Source: an uncultured bacterium (GTDB taxonomy: Bacteria > Verrucomicrobiota > Kiritimatiellia > RFP12 > UBA1067). From it: DNA of 64,000 nt. The position numbers were made by a program, and so were the translations under genes. Below, in pieces: positions 10,804-20,184 of this stretch. Location of the stretch: assembly GCA_902779565.1 (NCBI GenBank), contig CACZCD010000001.1, positions 3,929 to 67,928 of the forward strand, written 5' to 3'. How positions within the stretch are numbered: position 1 is the first letter of the stretch; every line of letters starts with the position of its first letter. Under the pieces are notes generated by a model. The model was not told the DNA's origin and did no database searches. It saw nothing but the letters and a program-made list of their open reading frames with translations.

Positions 10804-11634
10804 TTACATCTTTGGCATCGTGTCCTTCATGCCAAGCGCAAGATACTTGGAGCGCGCATAGTCGTAGTACTTGAGATCGACTATGGAATTCTCTGGAATG
10901 CCGATCGAGGCAAGGTAGCGGTGACGTGCAGTGGTGTCCACGCCATCGGTGCAGCCGGGCACAACAAGGCAGCGAACCTCCATCTTCGCCTTCGCCGCGA
11001 CCAGCCGCTCAAGATTCTTCCTGACGATCTTGTTTGAAACTCCCGTGTACTTCATGTGCAACGTATCGTCCTCGGCCTTGTAGTCTGGGAGCCACAGGTC
11101 CGTGACGGGCAGCATCGCGTCAATCGCAGCGGGTGGCGCGTAGAGCGATGTGTCAAGGCATGTATGAAGTCCGGCGGCCTTGAATGCCTTGAACAGCTCC
11201 GCCGCCCATTCCCAGAAGAACAGCGGTTCGCCGCCGGAGAGCGTCACGCCACCGCCCGACTCGTCGTAGAACGCCTTGTCCTCAAGAGCCTTCGCGACGA
11301 TCTCGGGAATCGTCATCGGCTTGCCGTAGAGCTTGAGCGCCCGCGTCGGACACGTTGCCTCGTCCATCGTGCAATGCTCGTGGTGCTTGCACAGGTGCTG
11401 GAACCGCGCCCACTGCGCCTCAGACTTTATCGATTCGGGGTTGTGGCACCAGATGCACTTCAAGGGGCACCCCTTCACGAAGAAGGTCGTGCGGATGCCC
11501 GGCCCGTCCCAGATCGCCATCCGTTTAGTGTCGAGCATCAGCGGCGCCTTAACGGCACGCCCGGCTGCGGACAGCATTGGGCTTACGGCAAACGCTGTCG
11601 AAGATACGATGAAACTCTTGCGCGTTACAGTCAT
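10804..11634 (-). CDS. Glycyl-radical enzyme activating enzyme (radical SAM, PflA-like short type)
   Basis: DGPGIRTTFFVKGCPLKCIWCHNPES (CxxxCxxC) and GGVTLSGGEPL. An alternative start at M33 (MLDTKRM) is possible, since the first 30 aa look signal-like. Confidence 0.9.
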   Translation of the reverse strand: MTVTRKSFIVSSTAFAVSPMLSAAGRAVKAPLMLDTKRMAIWDGPGIRTTFFVKGCPLKCIWCHNPESIKSEAQWARFQHLCKHHEHCTMDEATCPTRALKLYGKPMTIPEIVAKALEDKAFYDESGGGVTLSGGEPLFFWEWAAELFKAFKAAGLHTCLDTSLYAPPAAIDAMLPVTDLWLPDYKAEDDTLHMKYTGVSNKIVRKNLERLVAAKAKMEVRCLVVPGCTDGVDTTARHRYLASIGIPENSIVDLKYYDYARSKYLALGMKDTMPKM

Positions 11635-11638
11635 TATG

Positions 11639-11686
11639 TCACCACTGCTTCATGATATTCTCGGCACGGCGGATGTAGGCATGCCC
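11639..11686 (-). pseudogene. Relic 3' end of a glycyl-radical enzyme gene (16 codons)
   Basis: The minus strand reads GHAYIRRAENIMKQW-stop, preceded by an in-frame TAA. The intact enzyme ends DAYIRRAENVMKGW-stop at 17821-17865. Confidence 0.75.
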
Positions 11687-17685: not shown

Positions 17686-17820
17686 TTGCTTTATGCCGCT
17701 TGATCCTGATGCAACTCTGGTTGTTCCTTAATTGGCGCGTGTTATATCCCGACCGCATCCTATTTCGCAATCCCGATAGAAAGGTGAATCCGCCATCTCG
17801 CATAGGACAGTCATTGTGTG

Positions 17821-20184
17821 TCACCATCCCTTCATCACGTTTTCTGCACGGCGGATGTAGGCATCCTGTTCGGCCTTGCACATATCATTCCACCGCACGT
17901 TCCATCCGCAAATACGAACCTGTAGATTCTCGTATTTTTCGGGGTGCGCCTGGGCATCACGGAGCATCTCTGCACTGAACACGGTGAACTGGATCACGCC
18001 GCCACCGTTTCGGTGGAACATCTGAACGAGCGCACGCATGGCCGCCAGCCCCTTTTCACCCTGAACGACTGACGGATGAAGTAATACGTCAAGCGGATAG
18101 TCGCTTGGTAGCTTCTCCGCCGAAGAAGAAGCCAGGGTCGCAACGAGCGCCGTGGCACCCTCTGTATCGGCTCCCATCGTAGGAGAAAGGTTCTTCGAGA
18201 GTTCATCGCCCTTTTTGCGTCCGTCAGGTGACGCGGGCGTCTTCTTCCCGAGCTCAATGAAGCGCCGCGAGGAATGCCCGCTCGCCAGAAAGATCCCGCC
18301 ACGAGAATTGGGGATGCCATTCAGGTTGGAAGCGAATACATCGATTATCTCTGCGCCCAATGCGTTGGACTCCGGGTCGTTGTTGCCCCACTTCCGCTTT
18401 GAGCGTAGCATCCTCAGGCGCAGCGCCTCATGTCCTTCCCAATCTGATGCCATGATTTCGCCAAGTACGGCCAGCGACTTTTCACGCTTTTCATAGACAA
18501 TCTCCTTCACGGCCAGCAACGCATCCACCGAACTGCCAAGGCCTAACGCGCGCAGCGTGGTATCATTGCCGCGCGGGCACCCCGTTGCAAATCCATCCTG
18601 ACGGGTCTTCAGGGCGTAATCGGTCGCCAACGTCATGCAGATGGCGGGGTTGACCTCAGATAGGGCCTTTTCAATCTCGTACACGATCTTGCGGCTCCTT
18701 GTCGTGTTTTGGGCGACCCGTTTCATGTACTCCGACCGAAACACCTCGAATGTACCCCAATCGGCTGAAGGCGCGCCCTTCCGCGCCTCGTCCAGCATTT
18801 GCACCACAGGGAAGAGCAAGTTCAGGTTCACGGTGTCTGTCGTGTTCAGGCTGTCCGCCAAGCCAAATTCATAGCACCCGCGCACGGCCATGGTACGGCA
18901 GTCTTCGTCGCTTGCGTTTTTCCACCGCTTGAGTACCTTTGAAGCCGACTCCTCGCCAAGGAACGCCACGGAACGCCGCCGCCGCGCCATGTCGAGCAGT
19001 TTCGCCCACGCCCAATCCGGCGTGTTTCCGCCCACCTTCACGATGAACTTGGGTGAGGTGAGGTTGAGCTCATCGACGACATCAAGAATGATGCGCGAGA
19101 CCTCCCCGAATTCGCTGGAACCATCCTGTTTCGTGCCGCCCAGGCCCGCGGGCTGTGCATAGTAGTTCGCGGCGGAACCCCACTGCCAGAGGAAGTGCTT
19201 GATCTGCTCGCGGAATTCCGCCTCGGTCGTGCGCCCCACCGCAATGTCGGAAACATAGTAGGGCGCAAGGAACACATCCAGCTCCGTGAGTGAACGGCAC
19301 TGGATGCCATCGAGGTGTTCCGACCAGAAGAAATAAAGCCACACAAACATCAACATGTCGTAGGCCGTCTGCGGCGGGCCGTTCCGCAGACGCTCCAGAC
19401 AAGCAATTTCCTTTTTAAGACGATCCTTACCATTTGCAATTTTGATTCTTGAACAATTGAGGCAATTGTCATTTGTGAACAATTGCAGTTGTTTCCTCCC
19501 CTGTTCGACAAAACGATCTATTCCGACGAGCATTGCATCCATCGCGATGCGGCATGACTCGCAGAACGGATCGTCTTTCACAGCATACTTCTCCAGACGC
19601 GCCTTCATACCCGGGAATCCGAGCGCGAGGATTACGCGCCAGTCGGGAACGGAATGGTCGAAATCCCGCCACATGAGCCAACGTCCTTCGGCATTGCCGT
19701 CATGCCACTCTTTCCAGGCCCAACTCGGAAGCGTCCTGTTCACTTCGCCATGCCGATGCTTGCCAGCAGAACGGATGGGGCGATTCCAGCGATCCCACAC
19801 GGCTATTGCCGGGAACCAGTCGAAGGGCGACACATCTATAGATTGCCGCTCGATCTGGGCGGCAAAGCATTTCGCCTTCGTGACGCGCCAAGACTCATTT
19901 GCCGACTTGCCCTTGGCGACGATCACTGCCAATAGTTCCTTAAGGGCATCCGTGCCCAATCCCGTCGTCCTGTCAGTAACATCCTGACGGAATTTTCGGC
20001 GCAGATACGTGTCCATATCCGTGATGTTCGCGACATATGGATCCCACCAAGTGATGTCTTCGACACATCTACGCTTTGGCACGACTACTTCATCCCCAAC
20101 CGTGGATGGGGCGGCAACGCCCATCGACAGGACCGCCGCACAGACTGCCGATAGCAGATGCCGTATAAGACACTTGTCTTTCAT
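17821..20184 (-). CDS. Pyruvate formate-lyase-like glycyl radical enzyme (eliminase/dehydratase-type Cys loop)
   Basis: Glycyl loop LQVRICGWNVRW (RVxG-type) and Cys loop AVRGCYEFG (GCxE). The C-terminal region is typical of glycyl radical enzymes (PASPDGRKKGDELS...). Start placed at ATG 20184, with GGGAGGAG upstream; the ORF-track start at 20229 is GTG. Confidence 0.85.
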   Translation of the reverse strand: MKDKCLIRHLLSAVCAAVLSMGVAAPSTVGDEVVVPKRRCVEDITWWDPYVANITDMDTYLRRKFRQDVTDRTTGLGTDALKELLAVIVAKGKSANESWRVTKAKCFAAQIERQSIDVSPFDWFPAIAVWDRWNRPIRSAGKHRHGEVNRTLPSWAWKEWHDGNAEGRWLMWRDFDHSVPDWRVILALGFPGMKARLEKYAVKDDPFCESCRIAMDAMLVGIDRFVEQGRKQLQLFTNDNCLNCSRIKIANGKDRLKKEIACLERLRNGPPQTAYDMLMFVWLYFFWSEHLDGIQCRSLTELDVFLAPYYVSDIAVGRTTEAEFREQIKHFLWQWGSAANYYAQPAGLGGTKQDGSSEFGEVSRIILDVVDELNLTSPKFIVKVGGNTPDWAWAKLLDMARRRRSVAFLGEESASKVLKRWKNASDEDCRTMAVRGCYEFGLADSLNTTDTVNLNLLFPVVQMLDEARKGAPSADWGTFEVFRSEYMKRVAQNTTRSRKIVYEIEKALSEVNPAICMTLATDYALKTRQDGFATGCPRGNDTTLRALGLGSSVDALLAVKEIVYEKREKSLAVLGEIMASDWEGHEALRLRMLRSKRKWGNNDPESNALGAEIIDVFASNLNGIPNSRGGIFLASGHSSRRFIELGKKTPASPDGRKKGDELSKNLSPTMGADTEGATALVATLASSSAEKLPSDYPLDVLLHPSVVQGEKGLAAMRALVQMFHRNGGGVIQFTVFSAEMLRDAQAHPEKYENLQVRICGWNVRWNDMCKAEQDAYIRRAENVMKGW

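What the first reader, a model, noticed from the sequence alone, without database searches (positions are those of the whole stretch)
11627..17865. Glycyl-radical enzyme and its activase separated by a 6.1-kb CAZyme cassette flanked by a duplicated enzyme/activase junction
The junction consists of the last about 15 codons of the enzyme, its stop, a short spacer and the first 8 nt of the activase, and it occurs twice. Copy 2 (17807-17865) is the real 3' end of the intact enzyme (…DAYIRRAENVMKGW-stop), followed by a dead ATGACTGT. Copy 1 (11627-11683) is the real activase start (ATGACTGT…), preceded by a dead enzyme tail reading GHAYIRRAENIMKQW-stop with an in-frame TAA before it. In my hand alignment 47 of 59 columns are identical, including an uninterrupted 17-nt run ACGGCGGATGTAGGCAT. 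Between the copies lie four co-directional, tightly coupled genes: a GH20-like protein, a 65-aa secreted peptide, an FGE-sulfatase-domain protein and a GH28-like multidomain hydrolase. Either a cassette inserted into an ancestral enzyme-activase operon with duplication of about 58 bp, or two paralogous operons recombined and each lost one partner. Either way the activase is now 6 kb from its enzyme, with hydrolase genes in between that are predicted to be exported.
Basis: seen in the sequence. Interest (0 to 1): 0.7.

Follow-up and report, generated by a model that had tools for sequence, protein, structure and literature searches.

The report
Gene-remnant scar beside a glycyl-radical activase
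A rumen bacterium's radical enzyme and its activator are separated by a portable four-gene sugar-degrading module, and the apparent "duplicated junction" is most likely the leftover tail of a second, lost enzyme gene, which makes it an ordinary rearrangement scar.

Summary
A 56-58 nt stretch at 11627-11682 resembles 17807-17864, with 47 of 58 columns identical and a z-score of about 21. An intact glycyl-radical enzyme (GRE) and an activase are separated by four co-directional genes.

The "duplication made by insertion" reading is not supported. The repeat is mostly the family-wide conserved 3' coding end of this GRE clade. The relic matches its own GRE tail at 34/42 nt, which is typical of random pairs of intact tails (33.8±2.6). 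Its best match (37/42, with an identical TGA-CATA-ATG spacer) is locus L136. There an intact GRE of a different paralog class (59% aa identity) abuts the orthologous activase, and homology to the window starts at the first relic base.

A second relative, L127, has GRE, then a different 9.4-kb CAZyme cassette, then a relic of yet another GRE paralog, then the activase. The window's cassette (11717-17774) is a discrete module. It is 90.8% identical to a copy in a relative that lies beside unrelated genes.

Most likely the cassette replaced the body of a second GRE, and its tail survived because it carries the activase's translation start region.

Side observation: this uncharacterised Kiritimatiellae GRE family and its activase carry Tat/Sec-like N-termini.

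The parts
17821..20229 (-). Intact glycyl-radical enzyme gene (GRE1, A-type). The longest ORF is 802 aa. The probable start is the ATG at 20184 (787 aa, MKDKCLIRHLLSAVCAAVLSMGVAAPS..., a Sec-like N-terminus).
   Evidence: PF02901 at 158 bits and PF01228 at 68.5 bits. VRICGW aligns with the glycyl motif and GCYE with the Cys loop of HypD and PFL2. The 787-aa product is called in 7 contigs.
17807..17864 (-). Junction 'copy 2'. It holds the last 13 codons of GRE1 (AYIRRAENVMKGW), the stop at 17821-17823, the spacer CACACA, and ATGACTGT (17807-17814).
17775..17806 (-). 32 nt of unassigned sequence between ATGACTGT and the L123-homologous cassette.
   Evidence: No match in any fetched locus.
11717..17774 (-). 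Portable cassette. It comprises an 89-nt upstream region with a sigma-70-like TTGCGA-17-ATATAA (my reading) and four genes, and it ends at the GH28 stop codon.
   Evidence: blastn gives 90.8% identity over 6078 columns to L123 5634-11702. Both flanks differ there: a two-component system and rmlACD lie upstream.
16618..17685 (-). 355-aa distant GH20-like protein with no evident signal peptide.
   Evidence: No Pfam or NCBIfam hit. A profile of 29 homologues hits GH20 catalytic domains 9fym and 9fyl at E = 6.5e-6. H174, G176, D178, E179 and E180 are invariant.
16424..16621 (-). 65-aa ORF with a signal-peptide-like N-terminus (MMKKIAVLAATAALMAASTASDD...).
   Evidence: It is conserved at 86% in L123.
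15062..16402 (-). 446-aa FGE-sulfatase-domain protein with a signal-like N-terminus.
   Evidence: PF03781 at 111.6 bits.
11718..15065 (-). 1115-aa protein with an N-terminal GH28 domain, a long C-terminal extension and a signal-like N-terminus.
   Evidence: PF00295 at 81 bits. It shows sub-cutoff similarity to rhamnogalacturonidase and polygalacturonase models. Its 94% homologue is P0121.
11683..11717 (-). 35 nt of unassigned sequence between the GH28 stop and the relic. It holds the in-frame TAA.
   Evidence: No significant similarity to GRE sequence upstream of the tail, in GRE1 or in L136. No match in other loci.
11639..11682 (-). Relic 3' end of a lost GRE gene (AYIRRAENIMKQW plus a TGA stop at 11639-11641).
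   Evidence: tblastn gives 11/13 identity to the GRE tail. It is collinear with an intact GRE tail in L136, with the alignment starting at 11680.
11627..11638 (-). Spacer CATA plus the live activase start ATGACTGT. The TGGTGA of the relic lies 4 nt upstream and may act as a Shine-Dalgarno-like element (inference).
   Evidence: L136 has an identical TGACATAATG. The intact junctions in L126 and L128 have the same tight spacing.
10804..11634 (-). GRE-activating radical-SAM enzyme, long form, with a Tat-like N-terminal extension (MTVTRKSFIVSSTAFAVSPMLSAAG).
   Evidence: TIGR02494 at 223 bits against a 174 cutoff. 113 of 120 closest homologues have the extension.
10673..10793 (-). Conserved 121-nt element just downstream of the activase. 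It ends in a relic esterase start (ATGATGCG).
   Evidence: 97.5% identical to L124 10843-10963. Its 3' part recurs upstream of the esterase gene in L124 and L001.
10485..10516 (-). Strong intrinsic-terminator-like hairpin (14 pairs plus a T run) that closes the unit.
20280..20308 (-). Promoter-like site upstream of GRE1 (GCGACA-17-TAAAAT).
   Evidence: This is a consensus match only.
21793..22584 (+). PAS/AraC-family regulator, divergent from the GRE. It is syntenic with L003, where it directly precedes an uninterrupted GRE-activase pair.

Best explanation
The unit reads: promoter, GRE1, a self-contained four-gene CAZyme cassette, about 45 nt of dead GRE tail, the activase, then a terminator.

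The dead tail is the remnant of a second GRE gene that once abutted this activase. L136 still shows that state, with the tail ...AENIMKPW, then TGA, then CATA, then ATG. A recombination event replaced the body of that second GRE, and whatever lay between it and GRE1, with a portable 6.06-kb cassette. The last roughly 45 nt survived because they sit directly on the activase's translation-initiation region. Stop and start are 4 nt apart, as in intact, presumably translationally coupled junctions.

The resemblance of the two 'copies' reflects common ancestry of GRE paralog tails. These tails are nearly invariant at the DNA level across the clade. It is not a duplication generated when the cassette arrived.

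Shown: the relic is a GRE tail. It is collinear with an intact GRE-activase junction of another paralog class. The cassette is a discrete module found elsewhere. The same architecture arose independently with another cassette and another relic type.

Inferred: the order and number of events, why the tail is retained, and co-transcription.
For: - The relic-to-own-tail identity (34/42) equals that of random pairs of intact tails (33.8±2.6), and 9 of 22 foreign tails are as close or closer.
- L136 has an intact GRE only 59% identical to GRE1 and 86-88% identical to the L023/L024 class. It lies directly upstream of a 91%-identical activase. Its tail matches the relic 37/42, the spacer is identical, and the blastn alignment to the window runs 11680-10814, starting at the relic boundary.
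- L127 reads GRE-A, a 9.4-kb different CAZyme cassette, a 67-nt relic of a B-type tail (score 41 against 9.5±1.3), then the activase. That relic matches its flanking GRE-A tail only weakly (score 16).
- Tandem GRE arrays that end in an activase exist in relatives (L018, L006, L002).
- Gene-body deletions that leave heads and tails recur in the clade: L014 (GRE-B), L027 (GRE-A) and L032 (activase).
- The cassette is 90.8% identical to L123, with sharp boundaries and unrelated flanks.
- On the minus strand, no terminator-like site lies in an intergenic gap between GRE1 and the activase. A strong one follows the activase.
Against: - Only 42-46 nt are informative, so 37 against 34 matches is a small margin.
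- L136's own tail looks A-type while the rest of that protein is of another class, so tails may be exchanged by gene conversion. That would blur ancestry.
- L003 shows AraC, GRE, activase with a single GRE, so a single-GRE ancestor at this locus is possible.
- Four-fold-site divergence between the window and L123 cassettes is 14-32%. A copy that was identical at insertion could therefore have drifted to 81%.
- No genome with the proposed intermediate (GRE1, GRE2, activase at this AraC locus) was found.
- The 9-nt identity AATGACTGT after the GRE1 stop is left as partial coincidence.
Confidence: 0.6

Rival explanations
1. Single-junction insertion with duplication. The ancestor was AraC, GRE1, activase. 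The cassette, with 32 and 35 nt of extra flank, was inserted 8 nt into the activase. About 58 bp of the junction was duplicated, for example by repair of a long staggered break. The copies then diverged to about 81%.
For: L003, L126 and L128 show uninterrupted GRE-activase pairs, and L003 shares the AraC neighbour. Both copies end at the same 9-nt AATGACTGT. Neutral divergence in this lineage is large enough to allow the drift.
Against: The relic is not specifically related to GRE1's tail. It is closer to L136's tail and spacer. A 58-bp target duplication fits no known transposition mechanism. The insert has no transposase, integrase or terminal inverted repeats. Other interrupted loci (L038, L127) show no such duplication. 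ATGACTGTCC matches other gene starts equally well.
Confidence: 0.2
2. Homology-driven (Campbell-type) integration. A circular DNA carrying the cassette plus a GRE-tail/activase-start patch from another GRE locus crossed over within the 19-nt identical run of the conserved tail. This left two non-identical junction copies. Conserved GRE tails would then act as landing pads that shuttle CAZyme cassettes among GRE loci.
For: The tail DNA is nearly invariant across paralogs (GCCTACATCCGCCG). Different cassettes sit immediately after GRE stops in L038, L127 and the window. A 443-nt near-identical tract between the window and L125 shows ongoing homologous exchange at this junction.
Against: 19 nt of perfect identity is marginal for RecA-type recombination (established knowledge). 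In L127 the cassette is not flanked by like repeats. No circular or excised form and no empty site was seen among 7 contigs carrying the same GRE.
Confidence: 0.12
3. The relic is maintained as a functional element in its own right, rather than being a passive scar. It could be a leader with the mini-ORF ATGAAGCAGTGGTGA coupling translation into the activase, or a promoter.
For: The relic has no frameshift and only one unusual codon, despite being at least as old as the window-L125 split. The B-type relic in L127 keeps a GGAGG 6-8 nt before the ATG.
Against: The near identity with L125 extends over 443 nt, including coding sequence. It therefore reflects a recombination tract, not local constraint. 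There is no Rfam match. Many activases in relatives have unrelated upstream sequence. This reading adds to the scar explanation rather than replacing it.
Confidence: 0.06

Closest known systems
Canonical adjacent GRE-activase gene pairs (pflB-pflA, cutC-cutD, hypD with its activase, dhaB1-dhaB2)
   Same: A PFL-fold enzyme with an RVxG glycyl loop and a GCxE thiyl loop, plus a TIGR02494-type radical-SAM activase in the same transcription direction. Relatives (L003, L126, L128, L136) keep the tight or overlapping stop-start junction.
   Different: Here the pair is split by four genes. The GRE is far below every characterised equivalog cutoff (best is TIGR01774 at 201 against 678 bits). It carries a signal-peptide-like N-terminus. 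One highly conserved activase (86-94% identity) appears to serve several divergent GRE paralogs (41-81% identity).
Gene remnants left by deletion or replacement in bacterial operons
   Same: A short in-frame tail with its stop codon and no upstream body. It is retained where it overlaps the next gene's initiation region. Parallel head-and-tail remnants occur in relatives (L014, L027, L032, L127).
   Different: The remnant happens to resemble the tail of the intact paralog at the other end of the cassette. That resemblance mimics a flanking direct repeat.
Target-site duplications of transposable elements, and direct repeats from Campbell integration
   Same: Direct repeats bracket a discrete DNA module that also occurs at another genomic context.
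   Different: The repeats are 56-58 nt and only 81% identical. There are no mobility genes and no terminal inverted repeats. The repeat sequence is a conserved coding end shared by dozens of paralogs.
Polysaccharide-utilisation-type CAZyme operons of gut and rumen PVC bacteria
   Same: Tightly packed genes for signal-peptide-bearing GH28, FGE-sulfatase-domain and GH20-like proteins next to an AraC-type regulator. Relatives add GH78, GH106, GH88, esterases and pectate-lyase-fold proteins.
   Different: The operon is bracketed by a glycyl-radical enzyme and its activase. I found no description of such an arrangement in the searchable literature.

Membership tests
Glycyl radical enzyme superfamily (PFL-like) | PFL-like barrel domain and C-terminal glycine-radical domain above Pfam thresholds | tested here: met
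   PF02901 at 158.3 bits against a 24.3 cutoff. PF01228 at 68.5 bits against 22.2.
Glycyl radical enzyme superfamily (PFL-like) | RVxG[FWY] glycyl loop and catalytic Cys loop (GCxE in the eliminase/dehydratase branch) aligned with solved enzymes | tested here: met
   VRICGWN aligns with VRVAGYS/VRVAGWS, and RGCYEFG aligns with SGCVETG (HypD 6vxc) and DGCVEIA (PFL2 2f3o).
Any characterised GRE equivalog (HypD, CutC, PFL, glycerol or propanediol dehydratase, HpsG/HpfG, IslA, HPAD, indoleacetate decarboxylase) | Whole-protein score above the curated NCBIfam cutoff | tested here: not met
   The best score is TIGR01774 at 201.5 against 678. HypD scores 179 against 1100 and CutC 123 against 1050. 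Best PDB E-values are about 1e-43 over the C-terminal two thirds only.
Glycyl-radical enzyme activating protein (TIGR02494, PFLE_PFLC) | Score above the subfamily cutoff and an N-terminal CxxxCxxC radical-SAM cluster motif | tested here: met
   223.3 bits against a 174.35 cutoff. The motif GCPLKCIWCHNPE is visible in the translation.
Remnant of a GRE-activase junction (gene fragment) | An in-frame tail, stop and spacer collinear with an intact GRE-activase junction in a relative, with no GRE body upstream | tested here: met
   L136 876-1739 aligns to window 11680-10814 at 86.5%. The tail matches 37/42 and the TGACATAATG is identical. Upstream similarity is not significant (p = 0.31-0.36).
Insertion-generated target-site duplication | The two flanking copies are each other's closest relatives, being identical at the time of insertion | tested here: not met
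   The copies match 34/42. L136 matches the relic 37/42, and L020 and L014 match 36/42. Random intact pairs average 33.8±2.6.
Insertion-generated target-site duplication | Mobility gene or terminal inverted repeats on the inserted segment | tested here: not met
   The four products are GH20-like, a small peptide, FGE-sulfatase and GH28. No inverted repeat lies at the cassette ends.
Twin-arginine (Tat) signal peptide, on GRE homologues and on the activase | Match to TIGR01409 or PF10518 above cutoff, with an RR pair | tested here: inconclusive
   RR variants score 13-15 bits against a 16.7 cutoff as the only hit. RK variants, including the window's activase, give no hit. The motif [ST]R[RK]xF occurs in 65/120 GREs (9 with RR) and 113/120 activases (7 with RR). 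The window's own GRE has a Sec-like N-terminus instead.
Glycoside hydrolase family 20 (355-aa protein) | Similarity to the GH20 catalytic domain, with the H-x-G-G-D-E acid pair motif | tested here: inconclusive
   There is no Pfam GH20 hit. A profile of 29 homologues hits GH20 catalytic-domain structures at E = 6.5e-6 over about 65 residues. H-L-G-W-D-E-E is invariant. The single-sequence AlphaFold model was unusable (pLDDT 36.6).
Glycoside hydrolase family 28 (1115-aa protein) | PF00295 above the gathering score | tested here: met
   81.1 bits against a 22.9 cutoff, over residues 42-259 only. The C-terminal 700 or so residues are unassigned.

The most novel reading that the evidence does not exclude
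This Kiritimatiellae GRE clade and its activase may work outside the cytoplasm. Most GRE paralogs and nearly all activases carry Tat-like (mostly R-K) or Sec-like signal peptides. Their genes are interleaved with exported pectin- and glycan-degrading enzymes, in operons that start with a GRE and end with the activase. The enzyme would then perform radical chemistry on glycan-derived substrates in the periplasm. The activase would be exported folded, with its cluster and perhaps with bound SAM. A weaker add-on is that the nearly invariant GRE 3' end acts as a recombination landing pad that shuffles CAZyme cassettes among GRE loci.
Probability: 0.3. Interest if true: 0.85.

Novelty: new member of a known kind. 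Interest (0 to 1): 0.35.

Why it matters
The junction repeat itself is an ordinary evolutionary scar, and recognising it as one stops a rearrangement remnant from being read as a new insertion mechanism.

The context has more value. It documents a large, uncharacterised expansion of glycyl-radical enzymes in rumen Kiritimatiellae. A genome carries several paralogs served by one highly conserved activase. The genes are repeatedly built into GRE, CAZyme cassette, activase operons, and the proteins carry export-type N-termini. If these enzymes act on plant-cell-wall sugars, and especially if they act outside the cytoplasm, that would extend both GRE biochemistry and models of anaerobic pectin and glycan breakdown in the rumen.

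The relics also give natural markers for reconstructing how such operons are assembled by module replacement.

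Tried and rejected
- **Extension of the repeat.** Local alignments of 120-150 nt on each side were not better than shuffles. 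The same held against L136 upstream sequence.
- **Assembly artefact.** Rejected, because the same arrangement appears in L041, L042, L043, L125 and L131-L135 from different samples.
- **Cassette presence/absence polymorphism at this locus.** None was seen among 7 contigs encoding the identical GRE.
- **Transposon insertion.** There are no mobility genes and no terminal inverted repeats.
- **Other GRE or activase copies in the 64-kb window.** None were found.
- **Donor context for the 32-nt and 35-nt unassigned flanks.** No match in 136 loci.
- **Structured RNA in 9.5-21 kb.** Only a sub-threshold PrrB/RsmZ hit (20 bits against 44), lying in GC-rich palindromic repeats.
- **AlphaFold on the 355-aa protein without an alignment.** pLDDT was 36.6, so the model was not used. 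An alignment-based job was not possible because locus-derived sequences are not accepted.
- **The codon-position pattern of the 8 differences.** Five fall at third positions. I judged this non-discriminating, because one copy is under selection in either model.
- **Literature searches.** Searches for Tat- or signal-bearing GREs, and for GREs in Kiritimatiellae or polysaccharide loci, found nothing relevant.

Full report
**1. What is in the sequence**

All relevant genes are on the minus strand.
- An 802-aa ORF at 17821-20229 is a glycyl-radical enzyme (GRE). Its probable ATG is at 20184, giving the 787-aa product that public assemblies call. It scores 158 bits on PFL-like and 68.5 bits on Gly_radical.
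- Its VRICGW and GCYE motifs align with the glycyl and thiyl loops of HypD and PFL2.
- It lies far below every curated cutoff for a characterised GRE, so it belongs to an uncharacterised clade.
- A 276-aa ORF at 10804-11634 is a GRE activase (TIGR02494 at 223 bits against a 174 cutoff).

Four tightly packed co-directional genes lie between them.
- The 355-aa protein has no Pfam or NCBIfam hit. A profile of 29 homologues hits GH20 catalytic domains at E = 6.5e-6, and an H-x-G-x-D-E-E motif is invariant.
- The 65-aa ORF has a signal-like N-terminus.
- The other two are an FGE-sulfatase-domain protein and a 1115-aa GH28-domain protein.

No terminator-like site on the minus strand falls in an intergenic gap between the GRE and the activase. 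A strong one, with 14 pairs, follows the activase at 10485-10516.

**2. The repeat is real**

Positions 11627-11682 and 17807-17864 align over 58 columns, with 47 identities and one 2-nt gap. The score is 34 against 9.7±1.2 for shuffles. It is the top direct repeat in the region. The exact run is 19 nt.

Copy 2 is the true end of the GRE (AYIRRAENVMKGW, stop, CACACA, ATGACTGT). Copy 1 is a dead tail (AYIRRAENIMKQW, stop, CATA) fused to the live activase start ATGACTGT. An in-frame TAA lies two codons upstream of the tail. Nothing beyond these limits is significantly similar. The arrangement recurs in at least seven independent assemblies.

**3. Organism and family**

The GRE's homologues are hundreds of unnamed proteins from rumen and gut Kiritimatiellae metagenome-assembled genomes. 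The best hit is 81% identical.
- Genomes carry several paralogs, often in tandem. I refer to an A-type (65-81% identical to the window's GRE), a 47-59% class and a roughly 41% B-type.
- The activase is much more conserved, at 83-94% identity.
- The activase sits in variable positions: directly after a GRE, before a GRE, or apart from any GRE.

One activase therefore probably serves several GREs.

**4. Why the repeat is not evidence of a duplication made at insertion**

The coding 42 nt of the repeat is conserved at the DNA level across the whole clade; GCCTACATCCGCCG is almost invariant.
- The relic matches its own GRE tail at 34/42. It matches tails from other genomes at up to 36/42.
- Random pairs among 22 intact A-type tails average 33.8±2.6, and 52% of those pairs reach 34 or more.

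The only part not explained this way is the 9-nt AATGACTGT after the GRE stop. ATGACTGTCC matches the activase start 8/10. It matches the start of the gene that follows the GRE in L038 (ATGAATGTTC) and in L127 (ATGATTGTTC) equally well. Both GREs and activases commonly begin M-T-x-T-R-K. Its origin therefore cannot be assigned.

**5. Where the relic comes from**

L136 carries an activase 91% identical to the window's. An intact GRE lies directly in front of it. Its junction reads ...GCCTACATCCGCCGCGCCGAAAACATAATGAAGCCGTGG-TGA-CATA-ATG.
- It matches the relic at 37/42, the best of all tails examined.
- The spacer is identical.
- The blastn alignment to the window (86.5%) starts at 11680, the first base of the relic, and runs through the activase.

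That GRE is only 59% identical to the window's GRE. It groups at 86-88% with the L023/L024 class. So the relic plus activase is collinear with a junction belonging to a different paralog class.

**6. The same architecture arose independently**

L127 reads A-type GRE, then a 9.4-kb cassette, then a 67-nt relic, then a long-form activase.
- The cassette holds an esterase, a 541-aa protein, a pectate-lyase-fold protein, GH28 and a GH78 rhamnosidase.
- The relic is a B-type tail (GDDIPCKEQDEYIHRIETVGGGL-stop). It scores 41 against the intact L128 junction, compared with 9.5±1.3 for shuffles. It scores only 16 against its own flanking GRE tail.

There the relic cannot be a copy of the flanking GRE. 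L018 (A-type, B-type, activase) shows a plausible precursor.

L038 holds the closest GRE (81%). It has one gene between GRE and activase and no relic. Uninterrupted junctions exist in L003, L016, L126, L128 and L136. Gene-body deletions that leave head and tail are seen in L014, L027 and L032.

**7. The cassette is a portable module**

Window 17774-11717 is 90.8% identical to L123 5634-11702.
- Homology starts 89 nt upstream of the first gene, just before a sigma-70-like TTGCGA-17-ATATAA. L123 has TTGCAA...TATAAT there. This promoter call is my own reading; the consensus scan did not list it.
- Homology ends at the GH28 stop codon.
- In L123 the flanks are a divergent two-component system with rmlACD upstream, and unrelated repeats downstream.

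In the window, 32 nt and 35 nt of sequence with no match anywhere separate the module from the two junction copies. Four-fold-site divergence between the two cassettes is 14-32%.

L125 shares the GH28, relic, activase junction. A 443-nt tract there has only 2 differences, inside flanks that are about 10% diverged. This shows recent homologous exchange rather than local constraint.

**8. Best explanation**

A recombination event replaced the body of a second GRE lying directly upstream of the activase with the cassette. It may also have replaced anything else between that GRE and GRE1. The last roughly 45 nt survived because they overlap the activase's initiation region. In L127 the retained tail contains GGAGG 6-8 nt before the ATG. 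In the window the TGGTGA lies 4 nt before it; its function is an inference.

The look of a duplicated junction comes from paralog-tail conservation. I put this explanation at about 0.6.

The rivals stay open for three reasons:
- only about 46 nt are informative;
- L003 shows a single-GRE form of this AraC-linked locus;
- drift from an identical copy is not excluded.

I put single-junction insertion with duplication at about 0.2 and Campbell-type integration through the conserved tail at about 0.12.

**9. Comparison with known systems**

In function, this is a GRE-activase pair embedded in a CAZyme operon. As a sequence feature, it is a gene remnant from operon remodelling. Membership in transposon-type target-site duplication was tested and fails on three counts: repeat relatedness, repeat length and absence of mobility features.

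**10. Side observation of greater potential interest**

- 65 of the 120 closest GRE homologues have an N-terminal [ST]-R-[RK]-x-F motif, followed by a hydrophobic stretch and an A-x-A-like site, ahead of the conserved RKQRNYxDxTWWD. A further 31, and the window's own GRE, have Sec-like hydrophobic N-termini.
- 113 of 120 activases have a conserved extension M-x-[VI]-T-R-K-[ES]-F-...-A-F-A-V-S-P-M-L-A.
- RR variants hit only the Tat-signal models, just below cutoff.
- Canonical TRRTFLGG signals occur on two other ORFs of this window.
- Distant GREs from other phyla lack such N-termini.

I found no paper describing exported GREs in the searchable library. An exported GRE and activase would be unexpected, because activation needs SAM and a low-potential reductant. 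This remains unproven.

**11. Verdict**

The feature itself is an ordinary rearrangement scar, a new member of a known kind. The surrounding GRE family deserves separate follow-up.

Noticed in passing
window 20100-20184 (GRE N-terminus) and 11535-11634 (activase N-terminus); P0001-P0120 and P0241-P0360: GRE homologues mostly carry Tat-like N-termini (T-R-[RK]-x-F...AFA-AP) or Sec-like ones. Nearly all closest activases carry a conserved Tat-like extension (MxxTRKEF..AAFAVSPMLA). R-K greatly outnumbers R-R. In the window the internal short-form start (MKTPLML in relatives) is mutated to VKAPLML, so only the long form can be made.
   Followed up: partly
window 41526 (-) and 33183 (-): Two ORFs that look like metallophosphoesterases begin with canonical twin-arginine signals (MRTTRRTFLGG..., MECSRRFFIEG...). 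The organism therefore appears to use a standard Tat pathway.
   Followed up: no
window 10673-10793; L124 10843-10963 and 9304-9402; L001 5734-5832: A 121-nt element directly downstream of the activase is 97.5% identical to the sequence downstream of L124's activase. Its 3' part, which holds a hairpin and the start ATGATGCG of an esterase gene, also lies upstream of the esterase-activase pair in L124 and L001. This looks like a second rearrangement relic, or direct repeats around esterase-activase.
   Followed up: partly
window 10480-10640: A cluster of palindromic TCGCAGGGTGCGA / TCGCACCCTGC repeats resembling REP elements. One forms the 14-pair terminator. They gave a sub-threshold PrrB/RsmZ hit (20 bits against 44).
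   Followed up: partly
window 11575-12017 compared with L125: A 443-nt tract with 2 differences is embedded in flanks that are about 10% diverged. It spans the GH28 3' end, the relic and the first 60 nt of the activase, and is a recent recombination tract between lineages.
   Followed up: yes
L014 3110-3310; L027 15900-16230; L032 660-760: Relatives hold internally deleted genes that keep only head and tail. L014 has a GRE-B with its signal-peptide codons fused to its last 22 codons. L027 has a GRE with about 40 N-terminal and about 90 C-terminal codons. L032 has an activase reduced to its start and its last 25 or so codons, right after a GRE stop.
   Followed up: partly
window 20512-21654 (-): A Fic-domain gene lies between the AraC-type regulator and the GRE. 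In L003 the AraC homologue is directly adjacent and divergent to the GRE. Four assemblies of the same GRE break 280-310 nt upstream of it, which suggests variability there.
   Followed up: no
window 7766-9558 (-): Two adjacent paralogous genes encode HU-like DNA-binding domains fused to DUF4469 / Ig-like (TIG) domains (HU-HIG type).
   Followed up: no
window 17728-17814 (-): The 'dead' ATGACTGT opens a 28-codon ORF (MTVLCEMADSPFYRDCEIGCGRDITRAN) that runs into the cassette's promoter region. Its first half has no counterpart in L123, so it is probably not a gene.
   Followed up: partly
L123 11702-11824: In the relative, the cassette is followed by tandem GTTGAGAGTTGAG / GCCGCGCCTTTGGCGCTG repeats at the contig end. 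These may be why the assembly stops there.
   Followed up: no
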